Assembly (NCBI GenBank): GCA_023396665.1
Contig: JAEWVL010000133.1
Span: forward strand, 1-32,558
Reading direction: 5' to 3'
Length of the DNA stretch: 32,558 nucleotides
Source: Spirochaetota bacterium
GTDB lineage: Bacteria; Spirochaetota; UBA4802; JAFGJZ01
A model generated the notes under the pieces. It worked only from the letters and a program-made list of their open reading frames with translations, did no database searches and had not been told where the DNA came from. Position numbers and translations under genes: made by a program. This document shows positions 6,305 through 24,132 of the stretch, one piece after another (the stretch's first letter is position 1; each line of letters starts with the position of its first letter).

Positions 6305-6817
6305 TCAGGGCTTCGGGATGCTGTTTGTTTCAGAACCGGCATTCTTTTCACCGGCTTCTGCAAGAATGTCATAGAGGGCCTGCGTGGTTTCCGTGACGAC
6401 TCTGCGGCAGATGATCTGGTGATGTTTGCGTTGTGTGACATCGTCGGTGCTTTTGACGTATTTTTTCAGAATGTCCGCGCAGTTGGTGCAGCCCAGACTG
6501 TCGTTTATTGTCGCGTCAAGATCACGCACCCGCTTGTACGCGGCGAGCTTGGTTTTCATATCGAGCGGATCGCTGTTGCCGAAGGCCAGCCCCAGCACCA
6601 TGAAGGCGCCTGTGAGCGCGCCGCATTTTTCGCGCAGCCGTCCCATGCCGCCCCCGAAGGTCGCGGATATGCGTTTCGCGGTCTGTTCGTCTAGTCCGAA
6701 ATCTTTCGCGAAGGCGAGCAGTACCGCTTGCGAGCAGGCGTATCCCCCGTCGAAAAAATCAAGTGCCCGTTGTGTGTAGTATGCCTTGTCTTGCGCAGTG
6801 AATGTGTGTGGGGTCAT
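6305..6817 (-). CDS. C_GCAxxG_C_C family putative redox-active protein
   Basis: 170-aa ORF with the family hallmarks GYACSQAVLLAF near the N-terminus, GGGMG...CGALTGAFMVLG in the centre, and further Cys residues (CTNCADIL, IICRR) toward the C-terminus. Confidence 0.75.
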   Translation of the reverse strand: MTPHTFTAQDKAYYTQRALDFFDGGYACSQAVLLAFAKDFGLDEQTAKRISATFGGGMGRLREKCGALTGAFMVLGLAFGNSDPLDMKTKLAAYKRVRDLDATINDSLGCTNCADILKKYVKSTDDVTQRKHHQIICRRVVTETTQALYDILAEAGEKNAGSETNSIPKP

Positions 6818-6895
6818 TTTGTTTTCCGGTAATAGGGATTAACAGTAACTGTTTTATCGGGGCTTAATCCGATTACTAAGCACACTTAATGCAAG

Positions 6896-6920
6896 TTTTG
6901 GCAATTTCTTTTTGCCAAAA
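6896..6920. promoter_or_regulatory. perfect 9-bp-arm palindrome TTTTGGCAA-N7-TTGCCAAAA, about 80 bp upstream of the C_GCAxxG_C_C gene
   Basis: Read directly: 6896..6904 TTTTGGCAA, spacer TTTCTTT, 6912..6920 TTGCCAAAA. It sits in the 227-bp gap between the ORP-like operon end (7045) and the next gene start (6817). Confidence 0.35.
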
Positions 6921-6979
6921 CGTATCCGCTTGACTACAGGAATTAGTTAGGCGGGAGATTGCCGATAGATCGTACTTTG

Positions 6980-7044: not shown

Positions 7045-7383
7045 TCAATGATCGCAGGCGTTCGTTCCTGTAACGAGACTGCCTGCGAAATAATCTTTTA
7101 CGAGCTGCTCGGCCTCTTCGCAGGGTGCGCCCACGATCACTTCAATGCCCTGAGACTGAAATAACTGCTGCGCGCGGCCGCCCATGCCGCCGGCGATGAC
7201 GAGCCCGACATTGTGTTCCTTGAGCCATGCGGGAAGCACACCCGGCTCGTGCGGGGGAGGGGTCAGTTCGCTTCTGGAAAGAATTTTTTTTTCGTTCGGA
7301 TCGGTCTCGAACACCGAGAACTTGTCACAGTGTCCGAAATGCAGATTCAGTTTTCCGTTTGCTGTTGGTATTGCGATTTTCAT
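7045..7383 (-). CDS. NifX/NifB-like dinitrogenase iron-molybdenum cofactor-domain protein (Nitro_FeMo-Co family), copy 3
   Basis: 112-aa ORF. MKIAIPTANGKLNLHFGHCDKFSVFE...VGLVIAGGMGGRAQQLFQSQGIEVIVG is the typical signature of this small-protein family. Confidence 0.8.
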   Translation of the reverse strand: MKIAIPTANGKLNLHFGHCDKFSVFETDPNEKKILSRSELTPPPHEPGVLPAWLKEHNVGLVIAGGMGGRAQQLFQSQGIEVIVGAPCEEAEQLVKDYFAGSLVTGTNACDH

Positions 7384-7479
7384 AGTCGCTCCTTTTTTTT
7401 ACTGTAATGCCGGCAATTACTGCCTTGTAATCGTGACAGGTCAAGCAGCTCGTTTAATTTGCTGCTCTTATCTTTCTCT

Positions 7480-8364
7480 TCAGTTTTTTATCATCGCCTG
7501 AAGTTTTGTCCATATGTTTGTGATCTCCTCTGTGACCATGTTATTCGTGTATTCTATCAGGCTTTTGCCCTGTATCTGTGCGGCAGTTACACTTTTGTCG
7601 AAGGAAATTTCACCGAGAAACTCTATGGCATTCGCTTCACAATAAGTCCTGATGTCCCCGCTGATTTCGGGATTGATGTCGAATTTATTGACGCATACAT
7701 AGGCCGGAATCCTGAAATGATGCGCAAGATCGAGAACCCGTTGCAAATCATGTTTGCCTGAGAGCGTCGGTTCGGTAACGACGACAACGGCGTTTGCTCC
7801 TGTGATTGATGCGATGACCGGGCACCCGGTTCCCGGAGGGCCGTCGGTGATGATCATCGGGGCACCCGTTTCGCGGGCGATTTTGTGCGCTTCGTTTCGC
7901 ACAACGCTAACCAGCCTTCCGGAATTTTCGGCCTGCGCGTTCAGCTGGGCGTGAACGAGGGTGCCGAAGCGCGACGAAGATACATACCACTCGCCGCATA
8001 CACGGTCTTCGAAATCGATTGCCTTCGCCGGACAAAAATGAACGCATACTCCGCAACCTTCGCATGCGGTCTCGTCGACCTGGAATTTTCCCGATTGCAA
8101 AGGGATAATGGCGTCATAACGGCACAATTGTGCGCATTTTCCGCAGCCTATACAATCTTCTTCTCTGACGTGTGCTTCCCGGCCGCTGATAAAGGTATGT
8201 GTCTTTTGCACCTCGGGTGCGAAAATAAGATGAAGATCTGCGGCATCGACATCACAATCTGCAAATACCGTTGTATCGTTTTGCGCCGCAATTGCGGCAA
8301 ACGAAGCGGACAAACTGGTCTTTCCCGTTCCGCCCTTTCCGCTGACAATAACGATTTCGTTCAT
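7480..8364 (-). CDS. MinD/ParA-type P-loop ATPase with inserted double 4Fe-4S ferredoxin motif, paralog B
   Basis: 294-aa ORF. Deviant Walker A at VSGKGGTGKTSLS. Two ferredoxin motifs, CIGCGKCAQLCRYDAI and CEGCGVCVHFCPAKAI, are inserted after the P-loop. The 4-nt start/stop overlap with the upstream paralog (8361..8364) indicates translational coupling. Confidence 0.85.
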   Translation of the reverse strand: MNEIVIVSGKGGTGKTSLSASFAAIAAQNDTTVFADCDVDAADLHLIFAPEVQKTHTFISGREAHVREEDCIGCGKCAQLCRYDAIIPLQSGKFQVDETACEGCGVCVHFCPAKAIDFEDRVCGEWYVSSSRFGTLVHAQLNAQAENSGRLVSVVRNEAHKIARETGAPMIITDGPPGTGCPVIASITGANAVVVVTEPTLSGKHDLQRVLDLAHHFRIPAYVCVNKFDINPEISGDIRTYCEANAIEFLGEISFDKSVTAAQIQGKSLIEYTNNMVTEEITNIWTKLQAMIKN

Positions 8365-9206
8365 GCCGCCCCCCCCTTGAGTGAAACGATCCGATCAAGA
8401 AGTGCGCTGAATCTTGCACGGTATGACTCGTCCGCGTCGAGAATTGTCTTTCCCCGCGAGATAGCCTCTGCGATTTTTCTTTCGTCGGGAATCTTCATCA
8501 GAATTTCAATGTTCTCTTTAGTGCAGTAGGTATCCACCCGCCCGTCACCCGAGTCGCAGCGGTTAATAATCACGCCGAAAGGAATACCGAGCATGCGCAC
8601 GGTTCGCACCGCAAGAACAAGGTCGTGTAATCCGAAGGGTGTCGGCTCGGTGACCAGTATCGCGAAATCGCTTCGTTTGACGGCGTTTATCATCGGACAC
8701 GATGTTCCGGGTGGCGAGTCGATAATGTTGATACCCTGCGCTGTGATATGTTTTTTAACTTCGTGAATTACCGGTGGTGACATTGCACGACCGATTTCAA
8801 GTTCGCCGCTGACGAGTGTCACAGCGCCCTTTTTGCTTTTCGTTATTGTTCCGATGCGAACAGGGTTTTCCTGTATCGCCTTTTGCGGGCAGACGAGGGC
8901 GCATCCTCCGCAGCTGTGACACAGTTCCGGATAGACACGCGCTTTTTTCGCGATAATGACAATCGCATTGTATTCGCATAGGGCCTGACATTTTCCACAG
9001 CCGTCGCACAGATCAGTGCTTACTTCGGGGATGGGCACCGTGACTGCAGTAAGCTCTTCTTCGGCGCTACCGAAGAAGAGCTCGTCGTTCGCTCCCTCGA
9101 CATCACAGTCAAGAAGCGTGATTTCTTTTCGTGCGGAAATCGAGAGTGCGGTCGAGACCGTAGTCTTGCCGGTTCCCCCTTTCCCTGAAGCTACAGCGAT
9201 GACCAT
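8361..9206 (-). CDS. MinD/ParA-type P-loop ATPase with inserted double 4Fe-4S ferredoxin motif, paralog A
   Basis: 281-aa ORF. Walker A at ASGKGGTGKTTVS. Ferredoxin motifs CDGCGKCQALCEYNAI and CHSCGGCALVCPQKAI. Confidence 0.85.
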   Translation of the reverse strand: MVIAVASGKGGTGKTTVSTALSISARKEITLLDCDVEGANDELFFGSAEEELTAVTVPIPEVSTDLCDGCGKCQALCEYNAIVIIAKKARVYPELCHSCGGCALVCPQKAIQENPVRIGTITKSKKGAVTLVSGELEIGRAMSPPVIHEVKKHITAQGINIIDSPPGTSCPMINAVKRSDFAILVTEPTPFGLHDLVLAVRTVRMLGIPFGVIINRCDSGDGRVDTYCTKENIEILMKIPDERKIAEAISRGKTILDADESYRARFSALLDRIVSLKGGAA

Positions 9207-9264
9207 TGTATACCTCTGCCTTGTCCTGGCTTAAACTTTCTTATGGGCTCAGTCGCATACAAGA

Positions 9265-9624
9265 TCACCAGTGCCCCTCCACATCAGCGGTATCGGCACA
9301 GCTCAGCTTGCCCTCTTTCAACAGGTCAAGCGCCTGCTGAATGCTGACATTTTCGATATTGTATATCGCAATCTCTGCCGATCTGAGAACATCGAAAGCC
9401 TTCGGCCCCGTATGCCCTGTAATAAGAACCTTCGCGCCGCTATTGATAACATTTTGTGCCGACTGGATGCCGGCACCCTGTGCGGCGTTCAGATTCTGTG
9501 TGTTGTCGACCAGTTGAAAATCACCGTTTTCACTGTCGAAAATCAGGAAACGGGGGGCACGACCGAAACGGCTGTCGACCGGACTGGAAAGATTCTCACC
9601 GCTTGTGCTCACCGCTATAATCAT
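9265..9624 (-). CDS. NifX/NifB-like Nitro_FeMo-Co family protein, copy 2
   Basis: 119-aa ORF. MIIAVSTSGENLSSPVDSRFGRAPRFLIFD...AQGAGIQSAQNVINSGAKVLITGHTGPKAFDVL is the family signature. The start overlaps the upstream DUF5320 stop by 4 nt (9621..9624). Confidence 0.8.
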   Translation of the reverse strand: MIIAVSTSGENLSSPVDSRFGRAPRFLIFDSENGDFQLVDNTQNLNAAQGAGIQSAQNVINSGAKVLITGHTGPKAFDVLRSAEIAIYNIENVSIQQALDLLKEGKLSCADTADVEGHW

Positions 9625-9965
9625 TGATTACCTTCCAGTTTGTTGAGACGTTCGTTGAGCGCTTCGATCTGTGAGTTAAGATAGTCTTTCTGGCTGGCAA
9701 GCATATCGCGTTCCTGTTGCGGCGTCATTTCCTGGCGAATTCCGTTATTGTACGCGCCGACGCCGCCGAAACCGAAAAAACCATTGCCGAAAAAGCCGCG
9801 AAACCCTCTTCCGAATCCGCCGCCCCGGCGTCCACCGCCGAAACCCCAAAAACCGCCGCCCGGTCTTGTCATGTAACCCGGCTGTGAATTACCTGAACAA
9901 AAACCCAAACCTCTTCCTGTCATGGGTCCCATTCCCGCAGGACCTGTTCCGTTTCCACCTGGCAT
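9621..9965 (-). CDS. DUF5320-type protein: N-terminal MPGGNGTGPxGMGPMTGRGxGxC motif, Gly/Arg/Phe-rich low-complexity core, C-terminal coiled coil
   Basis: The track ORF 9621..10088 is trimmed to the ATG at 9965..9963, which has a strong AAGGAGG Shine-Dalgarno 6 nt upstream. The resulting N-terminus MPGGNGTGPAGMGPMTGRGLGFCSG matches how this family normally begins. The extension upstream overlaps the preceding gene. Confidence 0.7.
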   Translation of the reverse strand: MPGGNGTGPAGMGPMTGRGLGFCSGNSQPGYMTRPGGGFWGFGGGRRGGGFGRGFRGFFGNGFFGFGGVGAYNNGIRQEMTPQQERDMLASQKDYLNSQIEALNERLNKLEGNQ

Positions 9966-9987
9966 ATGCTGCCTCCTTGTTTGGAAT

Positions 9988-10377
9988 CTATACATTATCA
10001 GAAAACTGCCGCCATCCTCCGCGTCGTCGTCGTCCGCATCTGCGGCGGGGACAACTGCATCCGGGCATTGAAAAACGCTGTTCGACAAGTGCGCCTGTTT
10101 TTATCGCGTCGACTACTTCGTCCAGAGATCCCGCGACAAAAGAAACGATCTCAATGCCTTTGCACAGAAGTAATTGCTCTGTTTCCCGGCAGATCGCGCC
10201 GCAAACAAGTCGATCAATTTCGTTTTGCATAACAAACTGCTGCGCGCTGCTGCCGCCGTTTATGATGCGCACTTCACTTGCTTGCGTATTCGCAGCGTCT
10301 TCGATTACCAGAAAGCTTCTGGCAGAATCGAATACCGGAGCGATGCGATTATTCCAGGTTGCTATTGCAGTCTTCAT
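9988..10377 (-). CDS. NifX/NifB-like Nitro_FeMo-Co family protein, copy 1, with a basic Cys/Arg-rich C-terminal tail
   Basis: The track ORF starts at TTG 10386. The in-frame ATG at 10377 gives MKTAIATWNNRIAPVFDSARSFLVIED, the usual N-terminus of this family. The tail is PGCSCPRRRCGRRRRGG. No Shine-Dalgarno precedes either start. Confidence 0.7.
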   Translation of the reverse strand: MKTAIATWNNRIAPVFDSARSFLVIEDAANTQASEVRIINGGSSAQQFVMQNEIDRLVCGAICRETEQLLLCKGIEIVSFVAGSLDEVVDAIKTGALVEQRFSMPGCSCPRRRCGRRRRGGWRQFSDNV

Positions 10378-10389
10378 GTCTGACAATAC

Positions 10390-10404
10390 GCATAAGTCGT
10401 GCCA
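10390..10404 (-). promoter_or_regulatory. candidate sigma-54 (-24/-12) promoter for the ORP-like operon
   Basis: The minus strand reads cTGGCACGACTTATGCg, against the consensus TGGCACG-N4-TTGCW. The GG-to-GC spacing is exact and there is one mismatch in the -12 element. It lies directly downstream of a sigma-54 activator gene. The predicted +1 falls about 1 nt before the ATG at 10377. Confidence 0.5.
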
Positions 10405-10473
10405 GAATTAGCAGTGAAAACTCTATTGATTATGACGAAAAACGGGGCTTTTTATTGCAGAAAAAATATAAAT

Positions 10474-10509
10474 GTCGCATAAATGCGAATGAAGTCGCAT
10501 TTATGCGAC
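10474..10509. promoter_or_regulatory. tandem dyad repeats (TCGCAT-AA-ATGCGA and TCGCAT-TT-ATGCGA, centres 20 bp apart): candidate enhancer (UAS) for the sigma-54 activator and/or terminator hairpin of the activator gene
   Basis: 10475..10488 and 10495..10508 are each self-complementary and are also mutual inverted repeats. They lie about 80 and 100 bp upstream of the -24 element. On the minus strand the structure is followed by ATTTATATTTTTT, so it could also act as an intrinsic terminator after the stop at 10539. Confidence 0.45.
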
Positions 10510-10538
10510 TTCAGTACTGTTGAAAACGGGGATGTTTT

Positions 10539-11897
10539 TCAGATTGTGATGCCGTAGCGTTTCATCTTGCGGTAGAGCGTGGCCCTGTCGATGCCCAGCT
10601 GTTTTGCACTTTCGCTGACATCATTGCCGTTTGTCTCAAGTGTTTGCAGTATCGTGCTTTTCTCCGCCTCGCTTCTTGTCTGTCGTATTGATGTCGCCGC
10701 TGTTTCGGGGGAGGGCCTGTGCTGTGTGCTGAATTGTTCGCTTTGCAGATGCTCTTTTCGTATCTCTTTTTTGTCGCACAACACAACGGCGCGCTCGATC
10801 ACGTTTTCCAGCTCACGGATGTTTCCGGGCCAATCGTAGTTGTATAACAGAGAAAAAACTTCGGCTTGTATCGTGCTGACCTGTTTGTCCATAATTCGGG
10901 CGAATTTGTGCAGGAAACCCTCGGCAAGCAAGGGTATGTCCTCTTTACGCTCGCGCAGCGGCGGCAGTCGCAGTTCAATCACGTTGATGCGGTAATAAAG
11001 ATCTTCCCTGAAGGCGCCTTCTGAAACCATCTGTTTGAGGTTCTTGTTGCTTGCGCAGATAACGCGGAAGTCACAGTGTTCTGACTTTAGCGCGCCGAGC
11101 GGTTCGTATTCGCGCTCCTGCAGAACACGCAAGAGTTTCACCTGCAGGGGCAGGGGCATCTCGCCGATCTCGTCGAGAAAGACCGTTCCGCTTTTCGCAA
11201 GAGCGAAGCGGCCGGGTTTATCTTTTTCTGCGCCGGTAAAGGCTCCTTTTTTGTAGCCGAAAAGTTCTGATTCAAGTAGGGTGTCGGGCAGGGCTGCACA
11301 GTTAACGGCGATGAAAGGGCCTTTTTTGCGTCCGCTTAAATCATGGATGCTGTGGGCGAGCAATTCCTTTCCCGTTCCTGTTTCACCCTGAATCAGAATG
11401 GTGCTTTCGGTAGGGGCGGCCGCGTTCACCACTTCGAAGAGCTTTTCCATCGCGGCATTGTTTGACGAGATGCTTCCGAGCACGGCGCGGCTTTTGAGCT
11501 CGCTTTTGAGCATCTCGATTTCGCGCAGATCTCTGAAGGTCTCGGCACCGCCGATCACCGTCCCGGTTTCGTCAATGAGCAGGGCGGTAGAAACACTCAC
11601 GGGAATGCGTTCGCCTTTGACGGTGATTATGTATCCCGCCTTATTGATTATGGGTTTGCCGGTTTTCAGTGTATGGCGCAGAGGGCATTCACTTTCGCAC
11701 ATATTCGATTTGAACACTTCACAGCACAGGGCTCCGATCGCTTCGCTGCGCCGGATTCCGGTGATATTCTCGGCAGCCCGGTTAAACGAGGTGATGCGCC
11801 ATTGCGGGTCTACCGTAAAAACGCCGTCGGAGATGCTTTCAAGAATGTTGTCTGTTTTGTGCAATCCCAACCCCCTTTTGAGGAAAGCCCGCGTCAA
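10539..11897 (-). CDS. sigma-54-dependent transcriptional activator (PAS sensor + AAA+ domain + Fis-type HTH)
   Basis: 452-aa ORF with a TTG start and AGAGGA 6 nt upstream. PAS region ILESISDGVFTVDPQWRITSFNRAAENITG with a Cys cluster (CCEVFKSNMCESECP). Walker A GETGTGKE, ESELFGY, the sigma-54 contact motif GAFTGA, and a C-terminal HTH SAKQLGIDRATLYRKMKRYGI. Confidence 0.9.
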   Translation of the reverse strand: MTRAFLKRGLGLHKTDNILESISDGVFTVDPQWRITSFNRAAENITGIRRSEAIGALCCEVFKSNMCESECPLRHTLKTGKPIINKAGYIITVKGERIPVSVSTALLIDETGTVIGGAETFRDLREIEMLKSELKSRAVLGSISSNNAAMEKLFEVVNAAAPTESTILIQGETGTGKELLAHSIHDLSGRKKGPFIAVNCAALPDTLLESELFGYKKGAFTGAEKDKPGRFALAKSGTVFLDEIGEMPLPLQVKLLRVLQEREYEPLGALKSEHCDFRVICASNKNLKQMVSEGAFREDLYYRINVIELRLPPLRERKEDIPLLAEGFLHKFARIMDKQVSTIQAEVFSLLYNYDWPGNIRELENVIERAVVLCDKKEIRKEHLQSEQFSTQHRPSPETAATSIRQTRSEAEKSTILQTLETNGNDVSESAKQLGIDRATLYRKMKRYGITI

Positions 11898-18758: not shown

Positions 18759-19682
18759 TTACTCTTCAAACAGCCAGGTGGAAAGGTAGCGCTCGCCTGA
18801 ATCGGGCAAAAGCGCAACAATGGTCTTTCCGCTTGTTTCGGGGCGTTTCGCCACTTCAAGAGCCGCCCACAAAGCCGCGCCGCTTGATATGCCCACGAGA
18901 ATTCCCTCTTTCGCCGCAAGTTCCCGCGCTGCCGCACCTGCATCGCTGTGTGTGACCTGAATTATCTCATCTATGACATCCGTATTGAGTACGGCGGGAA
19001 CAAAGCCCGCGCCTATGCCCTGAATCTTGTGCGGTCCGGGATTTCCCCCCGAAAGAACCGGCGAATCGACCGGTTCAACGGCAATGACCCTGATTTCCGG
19101 TTTTTTCTTTTTCAGCGCTTCACCGACACCGGTGATGGTGCCGCCGGTGCCGACGCCGCTGATAAATATATCTATGGCGCCGTCGGTATCGCGCCAGATC
19201 TCTTCGGCGGTCGTTCTGCGGTGCATCCCGGGGTTGGCGGGGTTATCAAACTGTCCGGGAATATAGCTGTTCGGAATCTCTGCGGCGAGCTCATCGGCTC
19301 TGGCAATGGCGCCTTTCATCCCTTTGGCGCCTTCTGTCAGAACCAGTTCCGCACCGAGAATCTTCAGCAGCTGACGACGTTCAAGGCTCATCGTGTCGGG
19401 CATGGTCAGAATCAGCCGGTATCCCTTCGCAGCCGAGATAAAAGATAGCGCGATGCCGGTATTGCCGCTGGTCGGTTCAATGATTGTCGTATCTTTGTTT
19501 ATCAGGCCTTTTTTTTCGGCATCTTCGATGAGTGCCATTCCGACGCGGTCCTTCACGCTTGAAAGAGGGTTAAAGGATTCGAGCTTCACCAGCAGCGTCG
19601 CGTTCGATTGGTTAAAACGTTTGATCTTTACAAGCGGAGTATTGCCGATTGTTTCTGTGATGCTGTTGAATATTCGTGACAT
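18759..19682 (-). CDS. cysK: cysteine synthase A (O-acetylserine sulfhydrylase)
   Basis: 307-aa ORF. Contains [10 protein letters not shown], the PLP-lysine motif [38 protein letters not shown], and the C-terminal [11 protein letters not shown]. Confidence 0.9.
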
Positions 19683-19759
19683 AAAGCCTCCCGTGCCGCT
19701 GTGTACCTGTAATTGTATGGAAATACTTGTAAATCCGGTAAATCAATATAATTACTATC

Positions 19760-19787
19760 ATAATAGTAGAGAATAAAGGATTGTCAA
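19760..19787 (-). promoter_or_regulatory. sigma-70-type promoter for cysK (TTGACA-N16-TATTAT)
   Basis: On the minus strand, TTGACA is at 19787..19782 and TATTAT at 19765..19760, about 78 nt upstream of the cysK ATG. Confidence 0.45.
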
Positions 19788-19791
19788 CAAC

Positions 19792-19916
19792 TATAGCATT
19801 TCACGAATGAAAAAAAGAAACGGAACTGCGCAGGAATAAATTTTCTACATGATTTACTACCAAATTCAAGATATTCCGTAGAGCAGTTCGGTTTCTTCTA
19901 ATCGTGAAATGCTATA
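19792..19916. repeat. ~125-bp imperfect inverted repeat (long composite hairpin) in the cysK / metY divergent intergenic region
   Basis: The outer arms TATAGCATTTCACGA (19792..19806) and TCGTGAAATGCTATA (19902..19916) pair at 15/15. The inner arms AGAAACGGAACTGC (19816..19829) and GCAGTTCGGTTTCT (19883..19896) pair at 13/14. The innermost GGAATA (19833..19838) pairs with TATTCC (19872..19877), leaving a 33-nt AT-rich loop. Confidence 0.6.
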
Positions 19917-20012
19917 AGCGTAAATCAGCGGCGTCGGCGCGCTTAATTTTTACCATTTTAGATTATTCCGGGTGTTTCAATGATTTATTTACTATTAAAA
20001 CGATAATATTAC

Positions 20013-20041
20013 TTGACATTAAATTGTCCCGCTTCTTATAT
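20013..20041 (+). promoter_or_regulatory. sigma-70-type promoter for the O-acetylhomoserine sulfhydrylase operon (TTGACA-N17-TTATAT)
   Basis: TTGACA at 20013..20018 and TTATAT at 20036..20041, leaving a leader of about 70 nt with an AAGGAG Shine-Dalgarno before the ATG at 20119. Confidence 0.5.
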
Positions 20042-20118
20042 ACCGGATATACGCTGGCATGAAAAGGATCGATAGACCTTTATAGCAGGCGACTGTCAGA
20101 GTATAAAGGAGCACTGCC

Positions 20119-21417
20119 ATGTCAGAAAAAAAATACGGATTCAACACACTCTCTCTGCATGCCGGACAGGTTCCTGATCCGGCTACCGGAGCACGCGGCC
20201 TTGCGGTCTATCGCACTTCCTCGTTTGTATTCAACAGCACGCAGCATGCGGCAGATCTTTTCGCGCTCAGGGAACCCGGCAACATTTACTCGCGGCTCGG
20301 ACACCCGACAAACGATGTGCTCGAACAGCGTGTGAGCGCACTCGAGGGCGGGGCGGCCTCTGTCGCCGTCGCATCGGGCACCAGCGCGATACACTATACC
20401 ATTATCACCATCGCCGCCCATGGTGATGAAATCGTTTCAGCGAACAATCTTTACGGCGGAACCTATACCATGTTCGATTCGATACTGCCGCAGTTCGGTA
20501 TCAGCACGAAATTCGTCGATCCGAAAGATCCGCAGAATTTCGAGAAGGCGATCACCCCGAAAACGAAACTTCTGTATCTTGAGGCGATCGGCAACCCGGT
20601 GCTTGATTTCGTCGATGTGAAGGCGATCGCCGATATTGCGCATAAGCACGGCCTGCCGCTTGTCGTCGATTCGACCTTCACCACACCCTATCTTTTCAGG
20701 GCGATCGAGCATGGCGCCGATATCGTCGTCAATTCGCTGACCAAGTGGCTCGGCGGCCACGGCGCGGCGATCGGCGGCATAGTTACCGATTCGGGCAGGT
20801 TCAACTGGAAGAGTGAAAAATTTCCCCTGTTCGATCGGCCCGATTCAAATTATCACGGTCTTCGATGGGCGCATGATCTGCCCGAACCGCTGGCTCCCAT
20901 TGCTTTCGCGCTGCGTTTCCGCACGGTACCCTTGCGAAATCTCGGTGCATGTCTTTCTCCCGACAACGCATGGATTTTTCTGCAGGGCATCGAGACGCTC
21001 GCCCTGCGTGTCGCGCGGCATTGCGAGAACGCGCAGAAGGTCGCCGAGTATCTCAAAAATGATTCCCGGGTTTCATGGGTGCGCTACCCGGGGCTTCCGG
21101 GTGATCCCTCGCATGAGCTTGCGAAGAAGTATCTGAAAAAAGGTTTCGGCGGTATGGTGGTTTTCGGCATCAGGGGGGGATACCAAGCCGCGGTGAAATT
21201 CATCGATGCTGTGAAGCTCTTCTCTCATCTGGCCAATGTCGGTGATGCGAAAAGTCTGGTGCTGCATCCCGCGTCGACCTCCCACTCGCAGCTCAGCGAG
21301 GAGCAGCAGCTTTCGGGCGGTCTCAGTCCCGATCTGATTCGTCTTTCGATAGGTCTTGAGGATATCGAAGATATCATCGATGCGCTCGACGCGGCGCTCA
21401 CCATTTCACAGAAATAG
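20119..21417 (+). CDS. metY: O-acetylhomoserine (thiol)-lyase / O-acetylhomoserine sulfhydrylase (Cys/Met-metabolism PLP enzyme)
   Basis: 432-aa ORF. Contains GFNTLSLHAGQ.PD..TGA....YRTSSFVF, the PLP-lysine context VNSLTKWLGGHG, HLANVGDAKSLVLHPASTSHSQL, and LIRLSIGLEDIEDII. Confidence 0.9.
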   Translation: MSEKKYGFNTLSLHAGQVPDPATGARGLAVYRTSSFVFNSTQHAADLFALREPGNIYSRLGHPTNDVLEQRVSALEGGAASVAVASGTSAIHYTIITIAAHGDEIVSANNLYGGTYTMFDSILPQFGISTKFVDPKDPQNFEKAITPKTKLLYLEAIGNPVLDFVDVKAIADIAHKHGLPLVVDSTFTTPYLFRAIEHGADIVVNSLTKWLGGHGAAIGGIVTDSGRFNWKSEKFPLFDRPDSNYHGLRWAHDLPEPLAPIAFALRFRTVPLRNLGACLSPDNAWIFLQGIETLALRVARHCENAQKVAEYLKNDSRVSWVRYPGLPGDPSHELAKKYLKKGFGGMVVFGIRGGYQAAVKFIDAVKLFSHLANVGDAKSLVLHPASTSHSQLSEEQQLSGGLSPDLIRLSIGLEDIEDIIDALDAALTISQK

Positions 21418-21462
21418 GTTTTAAGTGATTACTTTGTTCAATTCCGTACAATCCGGAGGAAT

Positions 21463-21909
21463 ATGAAATTATCCACGCGTTCGCGTTACGGTCTGCGGCT
21501 GCTCGTTGATCTTGCGATGAAACAGAATGAGGGACCGGTGCAGCTTTCATCAGTCGCGAGAACTGAAAATATTTCTGAAAAATATCTCGGGCAGCTTGTC
21601 ATACAACTGAAAACCGCCGGTCTTATACGCTCCGAACGCGGTAAAAACGGGGGCTATTATCTTGCCCGTAAACCAAAAGAGATGAATCTGCGCGAGATTG
21701 TCGAGAAGCTCGAAGGTGATCTGTGCATCGTGGAATGTGTCGGGAATCCGCAAGACTGCGAGCGCATCGCCTTCTGCGTTACCCGCGATGTCTGGAAAGA
21801 CATCGCCGATCTTATCGCAAAAAAACTCGAGAAGATCAGCCTGCAGGATCTTGTCGACAGAATTCACAAGTCGGGAAATGCCAATCATTACGACAGTTTG
21901 CGGTTTTGA
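21463..21909 (+). CDS. Rrf2-family transcriptional regulator with an IscR-like Cys set (C88, C92, C99, C105)
   Basis: 148-aa ORF. MKLSTRSRYGLRLLVDLA....GPVQLSSVARTENISEKYLGQLVIQLKTAGLIRSERGKNGGYYLAR is a canonical Rrf2 wHTH. CIVECVGNPQDCERIAFC supplies candidate Fe-S ligands. It lies 45 nt downstream of metY and is probably co-transcribed. Confidence 0.85.
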   Translation: MKLSTRSRYGLRLLVDLAMKQNEGPVQLSSVARTENISEKYLGQLVIQLKTAGLIRSERGKNGGYYLARKPKEMNLREIVEKLEGDLCIVECVGNPQDCERIAFCVTRDVWKDIADLIAKKLEKISLQDLVDRIHKSGNANHYDSLRF

Positions 21910-22023
21910 TTGCCGGGTATAGAAACCGCATCTGTTGGCGTATCAGTTCAAAGAGGCGGGGGGATACGTATCCGCCCCTTCCTGGTGTGATATGCGATCA
22001 ATCCCTGGAAGGGGTGAGCTTCT

Positions 22024-24132
22024 TCAGCCTTGATTTTCGATGTATTCGATGAGACCCTCAAGATTTGTGCGCGATTCAAGAAGTTTGATGAAGGCTTCCT
22101 GCGAGCACAGGCGACCCATCGTTGAGAGCGTTTCCAGATGCGATTTCGCGTTCGAAGAGACAAGAAAAATTGCGCAGAACGCGGCAATTCCGTCGGGAGC
22201 TCCGAAATCGACCGCTGAATCGAGGTAGCAGACCGATATAAACTCGGGAATATCTTTTGCGGCAATCGGGTTTCTCGGGTGAGGAAACGCGATTCCTTTT
22301 CCCATACCGGTGCCCATCATCAATTCACGCTCGAGAATCGCATCGCTGAGCTGTGAGCGATGCTCTTCCCGTTGAATGCCGAAAAGCGGAATCGCCTCTC
22401 GAATCACCTCACACGAGTCTTTGCCGCCGGCCAGTGTATGCACGCCGCCGAGGCGGAGTTTTGAACTTATTGTCGGAGCTTCGATACCGAGCACCAGTTT
22501 CGCGCGATCAATCGCCTCGTGAATATTGGCTTTGATGTTATCTATGCCGATTGTCTTGTCGAGTCCCGTCTGCCTGATGACATCCAGAGTCTGACTGTGA
22601 ACACCGGAGAGGATCAGCGTGACACCACGTTTTGCCGAGTCTTTGCAGATGTCTTCGAGAAGGCGAATGCCCGACGAGTCGATCGCCTGTACGTGGCGCA
22701 TGCGAAGAATGCGCACCTTCGGAGGTTTCTCGACGCGCAGCATCTCGTCCTTGAATTTCTCGGCCGCACCGAAGAAAAAGGCGCCGTTGATCTCGTATAT
22801 CTCCACACCGGCGGGCACGTCGATGCGGGCTATCGAGAGGGGATCGTTGATCTCTTTTTCTTCTATATATTCATCACGTATGACACTGATGCTCGCGACC
22901 TGACTCATTCGGCGCATGAAAAGAAACAGCGCGAGCAGCATGCCGACCTGTATCGCTACGGTAAGATCGAGAATGACGGTAAGAAAAAATGTTGTGAGCA
23001 GTACCAGCACATCGCTTTTCGGACATCGCAAAATAGCCTTAAACGAGCGCCACTCACTCATGTTGTACGAGACGATCAGAAGTATTCCCGCAAGACACGA
23101 CATCGGAATGAGCGCCGCAAGATTGCCGAGAAACAGGAGTACGAGCAGCAGTACGATTGCGTGAACGATACCCGCAACCGGCGTTCGTCCGCCGTTTTTA
23201 ATGTTGGTCGCTGTTCTGGCGATGGCGCCGGTCGCCGGTATCCCCCCGAATAAACCGGAGCCGATGTTGGCAAGCCCCTGTGCGATGAGTTCGGTATTCG
23301 AGTTGTGTTTTTTGCCGATCATGCCGTCGGCGACGACCGCCGAAAGCAGCGATTCGATACCCGCAAGTATCGCTATCGTAATCGCCGGAGAGATAAGCTG
23401 TTGAATGCGCTGCATGCTGAGTGCTGGAAAAACCGGCATCGGCAGCGATGTGGGTATGGCGCCGAAGCGTTTGCCGATCGTTTCGACGGGTATGTTAAAA
23501 ATGCTTACGACGGCGGTGGCGATGATGAGGGCGATGAGCGCGCCGGGAATCTGTTTGTTGAATCTCTGCCACACGACGATGATGATGATCGTGCACGCGC
23601 CGATAGCCAGCGACCAGGGGTCGATGTGGTTTATCATTTTTGCGTATGCAATCCATTTATGTATAAATTCGGCGGGAACCTTGTCGATGCCGAGGCCGAA
23701 AAAATCGTTCATCTGCGTACTGAAAATGGTCAGTGCGATACCGCTGGTAAAGCCGACAACCACAGGGTAGGGAATAAACTGTATTACCGATCCGAACTTC
23801 ATCAGTCCCATCAGTACGAGCAGTATGCCGGCCATGATGGTGGCGATGATTAGGCCGTCGATACCGTGGTTCAGGAGAATACCGTAGACTATGACGATGA
23901 AGGCTCCGGTCGGACCGCCGATCTGTACGTCACTGCCGCCGAGCAGGGCGATGATGAATCCCGCGATAATCGCGGTGAAGAGTCCTTTCTCGGGACCGAC
24001 CCCGGAGGCTATTGCGAAGGCGATAGCGAGGGGTATGGCGACGACACCGACGATTACTCCGGCGATGACATCGTTGAAGAACTGTTTTCTTGTGATAGTC
24101 CGAATGCTGTCAAAGAACCTGGGACGAAACAT
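22024..24132 (-). CDS. SulP-family anion transporter fused to STAS and a C-terminal PTS EIIA type-2 (Ntr/fructose-type) domain
   Basis: 702-aa ORF with AGGAGG upstream. The N-terminal ~400 aa are polytopic, with SulP signatures (AGVIVGVVAIPLAIAFAIASGV, GPTGAFIV, GGIPATGAIARTATNIKNGGRTPVAG). The STAS region is YEINGAFFFGAAEKF...LRMRHVQAIDSSGIRLLEDI...GVTLILSGV. The last ~150 aa (ILERELMMGTGMGKGIAFPHPRNP...AIFLVSS) look like PTS_EIIA_2 with a candidate phospho-His in FPHPR. Confidence 0.85.
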   Translation of the reverse strand: MFRPRFFDSIRTITRKQFFNDVIAGVIVGVVAIPLAIAFAIASGVGPEKGLFTAIIAGFIIALLGGSDVQIGGPTGAFIVIVYGILLNHGIDGLIIATIMAGILLVLMGLMKFGSVIQFIPYPVVVGFTSGIALTIFSTQMNDFFGLGIDKVPAEFIHKWIAYAKMINHIDPWSLAIGACTIIIIVVWQRFNKQIPGALIALIIATAVVSIFNIPVETIGKRFGAIPTSLPMPVFPALSMQRIQQLISPAITIAILAGIESLLSAVVADGMIGKKHNSNTELIAQGLANIGSGLFGGIPATGAIARTATNIKNGGRTPVAGIVHAIVLLLVLLFLGNLAALIPMSCLAGILLIVSYNMSEWRSFKAILRCPKSDVLVLLTTFFLTVILDLTVAIQVGMLLALFLFMRRMSQVASISVIRDEYIEEKEINDPLSIARIDVPAGVEIYEINGAFFFGAAEKFKDEMLRVEKPPKVRILRMRHVQAIDSSGIRLLEDICKDSAKRGVTLILSGVHSQTLDVIRQTGLDKTIGIDNIKANIHEAIDRAKLVLGIEAPTISSKLRLGGVHTLAGGKDSCEVIREAIPLFGIQREEHRSQLSDAILERELMMGTGMGKGIAFPHPRNPIAAKDIPEFISVCYLDSAVDFGAPDGIAAFCAIFLVSSNAKSHLETLSTMGRLCSQEAFIKLLESRTNLEGLIEYIENQG

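What the first reader, a model, noticed from the sequence alone, without database searches (positions are those of the whole stretch)
7045..11897. ORP ('orange protein' complex)-like operon: 3 NifX-like proteins + DUF5320 + 2 Fe-S MinD-like ATPases under a dedicated PAS/sigma-54 activator
Six tightly packed minus-strand genes run from 10377 to 7045, with two 4-nt overlaps. They encode three small Nitro_FeMo-Co (NifX/NifB-like) proteins, a Gly/Arg/Phe-rich DUF5320 protein, and two paralogous MinD/ParA ATPases, each with two CxxCxxCxxxCP clusters inserted after the P-loop. No nitrogenase structural genes are nearby. Immediately upstream on the same strand is a PAS-AAA+(GAFTGA)-HTH activator. This composition matches the anaerobe-specific ORP loci of Desulfovibrio vulgaris Hildenborough (DVU2103-DVU2109), which are co-regulated by sigma-54 and the EBP DVU2106 and whose disruption affects cell morphology and division. 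The biochemical function, the physiological metal cluster and the signal sensed by the PAS domain remain unknown. This locus differs in being a single operon, in carrying DUF5320, and in having a Cys-rich PAS region (CCEVFKSNMCESECP), which hints at a redox or metal input. It is the best candidate in the window for a poorly understood multi-protein system.
Basis: partly seen in the sequence, partly recalled or inferred. Interest (0 to 1): 0.7.

Follow-up and report, generated by a model that had tools for sequence, protein, structure and literature searches.

The report
Complete orange-protein (ORP) operon with OrpR
This is a complete, single-operon copy of the known but functionally unsolved "orange protein" (ORP) metal-sulfur system of anaerobes, together with its redox-sensing sigma-54 activator, so it is a new member of a known kind and not a new system.

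Summary
The ORP interpretation is correct. Each product has a one-to-one best match in a canonical Desulfovibrio-type orp cluster that I recovered from a Nitratidesulfovibrio genome: Orp7, Orp5, Orp8 (the orange protein), Orp4, Orp3, the C-terminal domain of Orp9/MrpORP, and OrpR.

- DUF5320 is the Orp5 equivalent, not an addition.
- The Cys-rich PAS motif is the conserved OrpR triad (C-x-E/D-x6-C-x3-C), which has been shown experimentally to hold a redox-sensing [4Fe-4S] cluster. The sensed signal is therefore known.

The single-operon layout is the usual one outside Desulfovibrio; the same gene order occurs in Geobacter sulfurreducens and in metagenomic loci. The only canonical part missing here is the Mrp/NBP35 ATPase domain. 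No nif structural genes lie in the window.

A unique -24/-12 promoter and two TCGCA-N4-TGCGA palindromes are conserved across related loci. The promoter sits 12 nt before the start codon, which implies a near-leaderless transcript. The host is probably an uncultured spirochaete.

The parts
10539..11897 (-). OrpR-like sigma-54 enhancer-binding protein (PAS / AAA+ with GAFTGA / Fis-type HTH). The true start may be the TTG at 11864.
   Evidence: Pfam domains. It is 46% identical over 441 aa to Nitratidesulfovibrio OrpR, E 1.6e-137. C58, C67 and C71 are invariant and E60 is conserved as E/D in 7 homologues. This reproduces the C52/C61/C65 + D/E54 pattern of DvH OrpR (PMC8359166).
10474..10509 (.). 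Two 14-bp palindromes, TCGCATAAATGCGA and TCGCATTTATGCGA, 20 bp apart. They are the candidate OrpR binding sites (UAS). Together they can also form a 15-bp hairpin followed by a T-rich tail, which could terminate the activator gene.
   Evidence: They are the only two matches to TYGCA-N4-TGCRA in the window, against 0.26 expected. The same motif lies in the equivalent intergenic region of L001, L004, L127, L129 and Geobacter L003. The hairpin is reported.
10390..10404 (-). Sigma-54 -24/-12 promoter TGGCACGACTTATGC, ending 12 nt before the ATG at 10377.
   Evidence: It is the only exact match to TGGCAC-N5-WTGC in the window. The same element sits at the same 12-14 nt distance from the first-gene ATG in L001, L004, L127 and L129.
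9988..10377 (-). Orp7-like small NifX-fold protein (129 aa) with a conserved SMPGC motif and a Cys/Arg-rich basic tail.
   Evidence: Pfam Nitro_FeMo-Co, 31 bits. Its best match in the canonical cluster is the uncalled ORF at the orp7 position, 26% over 120 aa, E 1e-8. The alignment shows the conserved CG(A/G), (S/A)MPGC and basic tail. The tail has pI 11.9.
9621..9965 (-). Orp5-like DUF5320 protein (114 aa). It has an N-terminal MPGGNGTGPAGMGPMTGRGLGFC motif, a Gly/Arg/aromatic-rich stretch and a C-terminal coiled-coil-like segment.
   Evidence: Pfam DUF5320, 87.5 bits. It is 56% identical over the N-terminal 36 aa to the protein at the orp5 position of Nitratidesulfovibrio, which itself hits DUF5320. 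Alignment. Residues 1-73 have pI 11.7, 41% Gly, 18% aromatic residues and no acidic residues.
9265..9624 (-). Orp8, the orange protein proper (119 aa).
   Evidence: Pfam Nitro_FeMo-Co, 75 bits. PDB matches: D. gigas ORP 2WFB at 1.9e-18, MTH1175 at 1.7e-18, 1RDU at 1.9e-19. It is 44% identical to Nitratidesulfovibrio Orp8, E 1.6e-31. The RFGRA, QNLNAxQGAGIQ, ITGHxGPKA and C-terminal EGHW motifs are conserved.
8361..9206 (-). Orp4-like MinD/Mrp-class ATPase (281 aa) with an inserted 2x[4Fe-4S] ferredoxin domain.
   Evidence: Pfam. Best match is Orp4, 35%, E 3e-53. The Walker A SGKGGTGKT, eight ferredoxin Cys, and C34 (in DCDV) and C170 (in PPGxxC) are invariant in 34 sequences. The AlphaFold model has pLDDT 91 and its best PDB folds are archaeal MinD, Cfd1, ATPase-type HypB, ApbC and NifH.
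7480..8364 (-). Orp3-like paralogous ATPase (294 aa) with an inserted 2x[4Fe-4S] domain.
   Evidence: Pfam. Best match is Orp3, 43%, E 1e-86. It carries the same invariant residues.
7045..7383 (-). Free-standing Di-Nase domain (112 aa), equivalent to the C-terminal domain of Orp9/MrpORP. It has HFGHC, PPPHEPG, GGMG and a C-terminal CDH.
   Evidence: It is 55% identical over all 112 aa to residues 347-458 of Nitratidesulfovibrio Orp9, E 8e-42. It matches NCBIfam MrpORP NF041136 at positions 265-365 of 365, 128 bits. Alignment. The motifs are those described for the MrpORP Di-Nase domain in PMC6345978.
6980..7028 (-). Stable hairpin 17 nt after the stop codon of the last gene. It is a possible transcript end or stabiliser and has no T tract.
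   Evidence: Inverted repeat with 18-nt arms, 89% complementary. RNA fold gives -27.6 kcal/mol, z = -2.67.
6305..6817 (-). C_GCAxxG_C_C family protein immediately downstream. It is a possible accessory gene, but the link is unproven.
   Evidence: Pfam, 104 bits. A 68%-identical copy lies 3 kb downstream of the orp operon in L001. Small proteins with faint C_GCAxxG similarity sit inside the operon in L004 and L127, but pairwise similarity to the window protein is not significant.

Best explanation
**Identity.** The region is a complete orp (orange-protein complex) locus. It consists of an OrpR-type activator gene followed by a six-gene sigma-54-dependent operon, in the order orp7-like, orp5-like (DUF5320), orp8 (orange protein), orp4-like, orp3-like, and a free Di-Nase domain equivalent to the C-terminus of Orp9/MrpORP.

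**Regulation** (homology to an experimentally characterised regulator, supported by conserved sites).
- OrpR binds the two TCGCA-N4-TGCGA palindromes about 70-120 bp upstream of the -24/-12 promoter.
- Its PAS domain carries a [4Fe-4S] cluster on C58, C67 and C71, possibly with E60.
- Oxidation damages the cluster and the PAS domain then blocks activation.
- Transcription should start at or 1-2 nt before the ATG of the first gene, giving a near-leaderless mRNA. The 4-nt overlaps couple translation of some of the downstream genes.

**Products** (inferred from DvH biochemistry and domain families).
- The two paralogous MinD/Mrp-class ATPases, each with two [4Fe-4S] clusters, form a complex with the orange protein.
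- The small NifX-fold proteins hold metal-sulfur clusters.
- The complex as a whole performs ATP-dependent handling (assembly, holding or hand-over) of an anionic metal-sulfide species, and only under strongly reducing conditions.
- The physiological cluster and its final client are not known.
For: **Domain content:**

**One-to-one best matches to the canonical cluster.** I recovered this cluster using the published OrpR operator. It carries that operator, GGGCGYRTTTTGCGCCC, upstream of both of its operons.

**Other protein evidence.**
- ORP structure match 2WFB.
- MrpORP model match for the 112-aa protein.
- Invariant OrpR Cys triad, matching the residues tested by mutagenesis in PMC8359166.

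**Regulatory sites.** The -24/-12 box and the palindromes are unique in the window and are conserved in position across loci with 54-66% protein identity.

**Synteny.** The same collinear gene order occurs in L001/L002, G. sulfurreducens L003, L004, L127 and L129.

**Published biochemistry.** Orp3-Orp4-Orp8 co-purify and receive Fe-S clusters from MrpORP (PMC6345978). The OrpR regulon consists of the orp operons only (PMC8359166).
Against: - No experiment exists for this organism.
- The Mrp/NBP35 ATPase domain, which in DvH matures Orp3/Orp4, is absent from the window.
- The UAS sequence differs from the DvH operator.
- No canonical IHF site was found between the UAS and the promoter.
- The Orp7 correspondence rests on 26% identity plus shared motifs.
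- My Orp labels for the reference cluster come from gene order in a congeneric genome, not from DvH itself.
- The biochemical role of the complex is unsolved even in DvH.
Confidence: 0.88

Rival explanations
1. The system is an IssA-like iron-sulfur storage and mobilisation machine. The Gly/Arg/aromatic-rich half of DUF5320 (Orp5) and the Cys/Arg tail of the Orp7-like protein wrap an anionic linear metal-sulfide chain (thioferrate-like). That chain is held on the NifX-fold domains. The two Fe-S ATPases couple ATP hydrolysis to reductive release of clusters. This refines the biochemical part of the best explanation and does not compete with the identification.
For: - The 119-aa protein matches MTH1175 at 1.7e-18. 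MTH1175 is the tail-less member of the IssA clade that was used to model IssA.
- The IssA tail is described as unstructured, cationic, aromatic and glycine-rich, with pI 10.7 and one Cys. It is proposed to bind anionic thioferrate electrostatically (PMC5524996).
- Residues 1-73 of the window DUF5320 have pI 11.7, 41% Gly, 18% aromatic residues, no acidic residues and one Cys. The Orp7-like tail has pI 11.9.
- The DUF5320 gene overlaps the ORP gene by 4 nt.
- From my own knowledge: the cluster reported on purified ORP, [S2MoS2CuS2MoS2]3-, is itself a short linear anionic thiometallate.
Against: - The comparison is of composition only, with no detectable sequence homology between DUF5320 and the IssA tail.
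- The Desulfovibrio Orp5 proteins are Gly/Arg-rich but poor in aromatic residues.
- An Orp5 homologue was reported to bind [2Fe-2S], not a polymer (cited in PMC6345978).
- No electron-dense particles have been reported for ORP.
Confidence: 0.2
2. The system is a MinD-like spatial regulator. The two ATPases act mainly as a redox-gated positioning or cell-division device, and the Fe-S domains serve as sensors rather than as parts of a cluster-handling enzyme.
For: - The best structural matches of the ATPase model are archaeal and bacterial MinD and FlhG/FleN.
- DvH cells with inactivated OrpR show morphological defects, and MrpORP localises to a cell pole (PMC8359166, PMC6345978).
Against: - The scores against the MinD equivalog models are far below their cut-offs: 38-50 bits against 213.
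- No MinC or MinE partner is found among the neighbours.
- The operon is dominated by NifX-fold cluster carriers.
- Cfd1, ApbC, HypB and NifH match the fold about as well as MinD does.
Confidence: 0.12
3. The system is an ordinary nitrogenase accessory cluster, in which NifX/NafY-like carriers and a NifH-like ATPase serve FeMo-cofactor maturation.
For: Three products hit Pfam Nitro_FeMo-Co. NifH and BchL appear among the structural matches of the ATPase.
Against: - There are no nifH, nifDK, nifEN or nifB genes in the 32.5 kb window. The neighbours are glycoside hydrolases, sulfur assimilation genes and housekeeping genes.
- None of the eight related loci inspected shows nif structural genes next to the cluster.
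- The proteins match the ORP, MTH1175 and MrpORP lineages.
- The activator is OrpR-type and not NifA. The NifA model score is 349 bits against a 529-bit cut-off.
Confidence: 0.02
4. The system serves molybdenum/tungsten/copper thiometallate homeostasis or detoxification. The orange protein would sequester Mo-Cu-S species that form spontaneously in sulfidic cytoplasm, and the ATPases would load or unload them.
For: The only cofactor ever isolated on an orange protein is the Mo-Cu sulfide cluster (cited in PMC6345978). The window protein is a clear homologue of that protein.
Against: - No Mo, W or Cu transport genes and no Moco genes lie next to the operon, in the window or in the related loci inspected.
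- The likely host is a fermentative, spirochaete-like organism rather than a sulfide producer.
- Regulation responds to redox potential, not to metals (PMC8359166).
Confidence: 0.08

Closest known systems
orp gene cluster of Desulfovibrio (Nitratidesulfovibrio) vulgaris Hildenborough, DVU2103-DVU2109 (Orp3, 4, 5, OrpR, Orp7, 8, 9)
   Same: Every component type is present and each is the specific best match: Orp7, Orp5 (DUF5320), Orp8, Orp4, Orp3, the Orp9 Di-Nase domain and OrpR. The control logic is also the same, with a sigma-54 promoter plus palindromic activator sites.
   Different: - There is one collinear operon downstream of the activator instead of two operons flanking it.
- There is no Mrp/NBP35 P-loop domain.
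- The operator is TCGCA-N4-TGCGA rather than GGGCGYRTTTTGCGCCC.
- No operator lies upstream of the activator gene, so the DvH-type autorepression is not evident.
- The loop is GAFTGA instead of GAFTDA.
- The first gene is near-leaderless.
OrpR (DVU2106), a sigma-54 activator with a [4Fe-4S]-binding PAS domain
   Same: Same domain order, 46% identity, and the identical C-x-(D/E)-x6-C-x3-C pattern.
   Different: Cluster binding and redox response have not been tested for this protein. It has an extra Cys (C59) next to C58.
Orange protein of D. gigas (PDB 2WFB), with MTH1175 and the IssA clade of NifX-fold proteins
   Same: The 119-aa protein aligns end to end with both, at E about 1e-18.
   Different: The metal content is unknown here. 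IssA carries its cationic Gly/aromatic tail in cis. In this locus a comparable stretch sits on the separate DUF5320 protein.
MrpORP (Orp9; NCBIfam NF041136)
   Same: The 112-aa protein is the Di-Nase domain, with the HFGHC and C-terminal CDH motifs.
   Different: It is free-standing and lacks the first Cys of the CxHFGHC motif (Asn here). The Mrp/NBP35 ATPase half is missing from the window. Related loci show all three states: fused (L004, L125), split into adjacent genes (L127), or Di-Nase alone (L001, L003, L129).
Collinear orp-type operon of Geobacter sulfurreducens (locus L003) and metagenomic loci L001, L127 and L129
   Same: Same gene order and same activator. L001 comes from a relative of the window's organism: its PurB is 90% identical and lies on the same contig.
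   Different: Protein identity is only 54-66%. Geobacter has a 33-nt leader with a Shine-Dalgarno sequence. A Lactamase_B gene follows the operon in those loci but not here.

Membership tests
ORP (orange protein complex) system | An Orp8-type orange protein: a small NifX-fold protein homologous to D. gigas ORP. | tested here: met
   2WFB at E 1.9e-18. 44% identity to Nitratidesulfovibrio Orp8. Conserved motifs including the C-terminal EGHW.
ORP (orange protein complex) system | Two paralogous MinD-class ATPases, each with two [4Fe-4S] ferredoxin motifs (Orp3 and Orp4). | tested here: met
   Pfam CbiA/ParA + Fer4. Reciprocal best matches to Orp4 (3e-53) and Orp3 (1e-86). Eight invariant ferredoxin Cys.
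ORP (orange protein complex) system | An Orp5-type small Gly/Arg-rich protein. | tested here: met
   The window protein hits DUF5320 at 87.5 bits. The protein at the orp5 position of the canonical cluster also hits DUF5320 (28.4 bits against a 27-bit cut-off) and shares the N-terminal motif.
ORP (orange protein complex) system | An Orp7-type small protein as the first gene after the activator. | tested here: met
   26% identity, E 1e-8, to the ORF at the orp7 position, with shared CG(A/G), (S/A)MPGC and basic tail. This is the weakest of the correspondences.
ORP (orange protein complex) system | Orp9/MrpORP Di-Nase domain with the HFGHC...CDH motifs. | tested here: met
   55% identity over 112 aa. 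NF041136 positions 265-365. Alignment.
ORP (orange protein complex) system | Orp9/MrpORP Mrp/NBP35 P-loop domain encoded in the cluster. | tested here: not met
   No Mrp/NBP35-type ORF occurs in the window. It is also absent from the operon in L001, L003 and L129, so it does not appear to be obligatory in cis.
ORP (orange protein complex) system | A dedicated OrpR activator: PAS with the Cys triad, a sigma-54 AAA+ domain and an HTH. | tested here: met
   Residue roles are taken from PMC8359166.
ORP (orange protein complex) system | A sigma-54 promoter with upstream palindromic activator sites. | tested here: met
   The elements are unique in the window and conserved across loci. The operator sequence differs from that of DvH.
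ORP (orange protein complex) system | Physical Orp3-Orp4-Orp8 complex, bound metal clusters, and a redox-dependent expression switch. | not testable with these tools
   These need anaerobic purification, spectroscopy and expression assays.
nif accessory cluster (NifX/NafY/NifB-type) | Genomic and regulatory association with nifHDK/nifEN/nifB and a NifA activator. | tested here: not met
   No such genes occur in the window or in the eight related loci. The NifA model score is below its cut-off. The rest of the genome has not been seen.
MinD septum-site ATPase | Score above the MinD model cut-off, with MinC/MinE partners. | tested here: not met
   minD_bact scores 38-50 bits against a 213-bit cut-off. 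No MinC or MinE was found among the scanned neighbours. Only the fold is shared.

The most novel reading that the evidence does not exclude
The ORP system may be a split, ATP-driven relative of the IssA thioferrate store.
- DUF5320/Orp5 would supply, in trans, the cationic Gly/aromatic wrapper that IssA carries as a tail.
- The NifX-fold proteins would hold a linear anionic metal-sulfide.
- Orp3/Orp4 would form a NifH-like heterodimer. Its two additional invariant cysteines (in D-C-D-V and PPGxxC) would ligate an inter-subunit cluster used to reduce and release Fe-S units.

In this lineage the whole device would be switched on from a sigma-54 promoter positioned to make a leaderless mRNA. That combination of promoter type and leaderless transcript would be unusual.
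Probability: 0.15. Interest if true: 0.65.

Novelty: new member of a known kind. Interest (0 to 1): 0.3.

Why it matters
The ORP complex is widespread in anaerobes, and more than 8000 relatives of its ATPase were retrieved in a single search. Its regulation is well described, but what it does is still not known. This locus does not change that picture. It adds a spirochaete-like member.

Compared with its relatives, the locus does yield three practical points:
1. Pfam's 'unknown' family DUF5320 corresponds to the ORP component Orp5.
2. The single collinear operon with a free Di-Nase domain is the common layout. It also occurs in the genetically tractable Geobacter sulfurreducens, which offers a better model than the divergent DvH arrangement.
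3. The activator sites, the promoter and the near-leaderless start are conserved enough to be used for finding orp regulons in other genomes.

Tried and rejected
- **Operator scan of genome contigs.** I scanned for the published DvH operator. It returned 120 stretches. Nearly all of the 80 listed are evidently chance matches in unrelated taxa. Only L057 (Nitratidesulfovibrio) was useful.
- **L035 (Desulfovibrio sp. W18).** It carries the operator and an OrpR-like gene with the Cys triad, but no orp genes lie within the 8 kb held.
- **Fievet 2011 paper (PMC3133258).** This paper first compared orp clusters, but it is not held. Its content is cited only second-hand.
- **Link between the downstream C_GCAxxG_C_C gene and in-operon Cys-rich proteins.** I tested whether the small proteins of L004 and L127 are related to it. 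Pairwise similarity is not significant, so the association is left open.
- **IHF site.** No WATCAR-N4-TTR site was found between the UAS and the promoter.
- **Rfam.** Nothing was found in the window.
- **PDB.** There are no relatives of DUF5320, and only weak ones for the Orp7-like protein.
- **Structure prediction of the ATPase.** The model is confident but does not discriminate between MinD-like and Mrp/HypB/NifH-like roles.
- **nif accessory reading.** Rejected for lack of any nif gene, here or in the related loci.

Full report

Pfam gives the following:
- Nitro_FeMo-Co for 7045-7383 (72 bits), 9265-9624 (75 bits) and 9988-10377 (31 bits, just above the cut-off).
- DUF5320 for the ORF ending at 9621 (87.5 bits). 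The match begins at the ATG at 9965.
- CbiA/ParA plus several Fer4 models for 8361-9206 and 7480-8364.
- PAS, Sigma54_activat, AAA_lid_14 and HTH_8 for 10539-11897.

The two 4-nt overlaps are real (8361-8364 and 9621-9624). Each ATPase has two CxxCxxCxxxC motifs, but only the second is followed by proline. All other ORFs of 250 aa or more in the window were scanned. They encode glycoside hydrolases, an FGE-sulfatase-domain protein, MipA, a SulP transporter, CysK/MetY-type enzymes, an Rrf2 regulator, PurB, ProC, RF-2 and radical-SAM proteins. There is no NifH, no NifDK and no Mrp/NBP35.

**Recovering a canonical reference.** The DvH chromosome is not in any annotated collection available here. 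I therefore scanned genome contigs for the published OrpR operator GGGCGYRTTTTGCGCCC (PMC8359166). Most matches were chance, but one lay in Nitratidesulfovibrio sp. 1201_IL3209. The full locus (L125) has exactly the published organisation:
- an OrpR-type gene;
- a divergent operon of a small protein and two Fe-S ATPases (orp5-orp4-orp3);
- downstream of the activator, a small ORF missed by the gene caller, a 132-aa Nitro_FeMo-Co protein and a 458-aa ParA + Nitro_FeMo-Co fusion (orp7-orp8-orp9).

The operator occurs upstream of both operons. The Orp labels I use for this locus rest on that gene order, not on DvH accessions.

**One-to-one correspondence.** BLASTP of the window proteins against this cluster gives a single specific partner for each.

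| Window protein | Partner | Identity | E-value |
|---|---|---|---|
| 129 aa | Orp7 position | 26% over 120 aa | 1e-8 |
| DUF5320 | Orp5 | 56% over the N-terminal 36 aa | 7.5e-10 |
| 119 aa | Orp8 | 44% | 1.6e-31 |
| 281-aa ATPase | Orp4 | 35% | 3e-53 |
| 294-aa ATPase | Orp3 | 43% | 1e-86 |
| 112 aa | Orp9 residues 347-458 | 55% | 8e-42 |
| activator | OrpR | 46% | 1.6e-137 |

Further points support these assignments:
- The 119-aa protein also matches the D. gigas orange protein structure 2WFB (1.9e-18) and MTH1175 (1.7e-18).
- The 112-aa protein matches the C-terminal 100 positions of NCBI's MrpORP model. It carries the HFGHC and terminal CDH motifs described for the MrpORP Di-Nase domain (PMC6345978; alignment).
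- The protein at the orp5 position of the reference cluster itself hits DUF5320 above threshold and starts MPGMNGTGPLGQGPGTGRGMGRC. The M. salexigens equivalent has the same architecture.

DUF5320 is therefore the Orp5 family and not an addition to the system.

**The activator.** DvH OrpR senses redox potential through a [4Fe-4S] cluster in its PAS domain. C52, C61 and C65 are required, and D/E54 is conserved (PMC8359166). In an alignment of seven homologues, the window residues C58, C67 and C71 are invariant and position 60 is always E or D, with identical spacing.

**Regulatory DNA.** The sequence between the activator's stop codon and the first orp gene contains three elements:
- Two palindromes, TCGCATAAATGCGA and TCGCATTTATGCGA, 20 bp apart. 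They are the only matches to TYGCA-N4-TGCRA in the window, against 0.26 expected.
- The only exact TGGCAC-N5-WTGC element in the window.
- The same palindrome type and a -24/-12 box occupy the equivalent positions in L001, L004, L127, L129 and Geobacter.

In the window, L001 and L127 the GC of the -12 box lies 12 nt before the ATG. The distance is 13 nt in L004 and 14 nt in L129. No Shine-Dalgarno sequence occurs in between, and the N-terminus MK(T/I)A(I/V) is conserved from the first residue. With the usual sigma-54 geometry the transcript would begin 0-3 nt before the start codon. Geobacter and Nitratidesulfovibrio instead have 33-55-nt leaders with a Shine-Dalgarno sequence. The leaderless start is an inference and needs transcript-end mapping.

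The two palindromes can also pair as a 15-bp hairpin followed by a T-rich stretch, which could end the activator's own transcript. No operator lies upstream of the activator gene, so DvH-style autorepression is not evident.

**Synteny.** The order activator, Orp7-like, DUF5320, ORP, ATPase, ATPase, Di-Nase is found in the following loci:
- Metagenomic loci L001/L002, at 64-73% identity.
- G. sulfurreducens, where the first two small genes are uncalled but present.
- L127, with a separate Mrp gene before the Di-Nase gene.
- L129, which has no DUF5320 call.
- L004, which has the same orp genes but no activator gene called in the stretch held, an MrpORP fusion, and an extra small Cys-rich gene.
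- L128, which replaces the activator with a DUF134 protein.

The single operon is therefore the usual form and the Desulfovibrio split is the variant. The ATPase family is very large, with at least 8000 hits below 1e-10.

**Host.** The window's PurB has its best named matches only in Spirochaetota MAGs (67-75% identity). Its 90% match lies on the same contig as L001. Together with the glycoside hydrolase neighbours, this suggests an uncultured anaerobic spirochaete.

**Mechanism.**
- *Shown by homology to tested proteins and by conserved sites:* redox-gated, sigma-54-dependent expression through an OrpR-type activator.
- *Inferred from DvH biochemistry (PMC6345978):* the two ATPases and the orange protein form a complex that carries Fe-S clusters, and the Di-Nase domain binds its own cluster.
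- *Unknown:* the physiological cofactor and the client.

In 34 sequences the ATPases keep the deviant Walker A motif, the eight ferredoxin cysteines and two further invariant cysteines, in D-C-D-V and PPGxxC. The AlphaFold model is confident (pLDDT 91). It resembles MinD, Cfd1, ATPase-type HypB, ApbC and NifH about equally, so the fold alone does not decide between a positioning role and a cluster-handling role.

**A lead worth recording.** IssA stores iron and sulfur as anionic thioferrate, using a NifX-fold domain plus an unstructured cationic, aromatic, glycine-rich tail (PMC5524996). Residues 1-73 of the window DUF5320 have the same chemical character: pI 11.7, 41% Gly, 18% aromatic residues, no acidic residues and one Cys. 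The Orp7-like protein ends in a Cys/Arg tail of pI 11.9. The adjacent ORP protein is a close relative of MTH1175, a tail-less IssA-clade member. This resemblance is one of composition and not of homology. I rate the IssA-like reading at about 0.15-0.2.

**Verdict.** The ORP interpretation is right in substance, but two of its three claimed distinctions are not real and one statement is out of date. The locus is a new member of a known, incompletely understood system, and its interest is modest.

Noticed in passing
window 10375-10404 (-); also L001 6781-6810, L004 6356-6387, L127 5528-5557, L129 5687-5720: The sigma-54 -12 element lies only 12-14 nt before the first-gene ATG, with no Shine-Dalgarno sequence. 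This is conserved in five loci and implies a near-leaderless sigma-54 transcript. In L129 the called start codon lies inside the -12 box and is probably wrong.
   Followed up: partly
window 10474-10509: The two activator-site palindromes can pair with each other as a 15-bp hairpin followed by ATTTATATTT. The same DNA may therefore also terminate the activator gene's transcript.
   Followed up: partly
window 8361-9206 and 7480-8364 (residues C34 and C170 of the 281-aa protein): Besides the eight ferredoxin cysteines, two more cysteines (in D-C-D-V and PPGxxC-P) are invariant in 34 Orp3/Orp4-type ATPases. They could form an extra metal site, perhaps between subunits. I found no mention of this in the papers read.
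   Followed up: partly
window 9621-9965 and 9988-10077: The Gly/Arg/aromatic-rich half of DUF5320 and the Cys/Arg tail of the Orp7-like protein resemble, in composition, the thioferrate-binding tail described for IssA.
   Followed up: partly
window 6895-6921 and 6305-6817: A perfect 10-bp palindrome, GTTTTGGCAA-N7-TTGCCAAAAC, lies upstream of a C_GCAxxG_C_C gene that directly follows the orp operon. A 68%-identical copy of that gene lies 3 kb downstream of the orp operon in L001.
   Followed up: partly
L001 10330-11160, L003 10113-10958, L004 12308-13054, L127 10026-10871, L129 13404-14258: A Lactamase_B (metallo-hydrolase) gene recurs just downstream of orp operons in five related loci, but is absent from this window. 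ARMT1-like (DUF89), NifU_N, CGGC-domain and UbiE-type methyltransferase genes also recur nearby.
   Followed up: no
L128 5509-5871; L128 6526-7008 and L129 6621-7004: One related locus has a DUF134 protein where the others have the sigma-54 activator. Two loci carry a TrmO_N-domain gene inserted before the ATPases.
   Followed up: no
L003 6930-7355 and 7376-7609; L125 6257-6688: In the public annotations used by the tool, gene callers missed the Orp7-like and DUF5320-like genes of Geobacter sulfurreducens and the orp7 gene of Nitratidesulfovibrio. In L125 a spurious opposite-strand ORF was called instead.
   Followed up: yes
L035 3405-4880: A Desulfovibrio sp. MAG has an OrpR-like gene with the Cys triad and the published operator upstream. 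Its neighbours within 8 kb are a PAS histidine kinase and unrelated genes, not orp genes.
   Followed up: partly
window 18759-24132: This is a sulfur-assimilation neighbourhood. It contains a PALP (CysK-like) enzyme, a Cys/Met PLP enzyme, an Rrf2-family regulator, and a SulP transporter fused to STAS and PTS-EIIA-2 domains.
   Followed up: no
window 27164-28471: The best named relatives of PurB are all Spirochaetota MAGs (67-75% identity). A 90% match sits on the same 128-kb JGI contig as locus L001, so L001 comes from a fairly close relative even though its Orp proteins are only 64-73% identical.
   Followed up: yes
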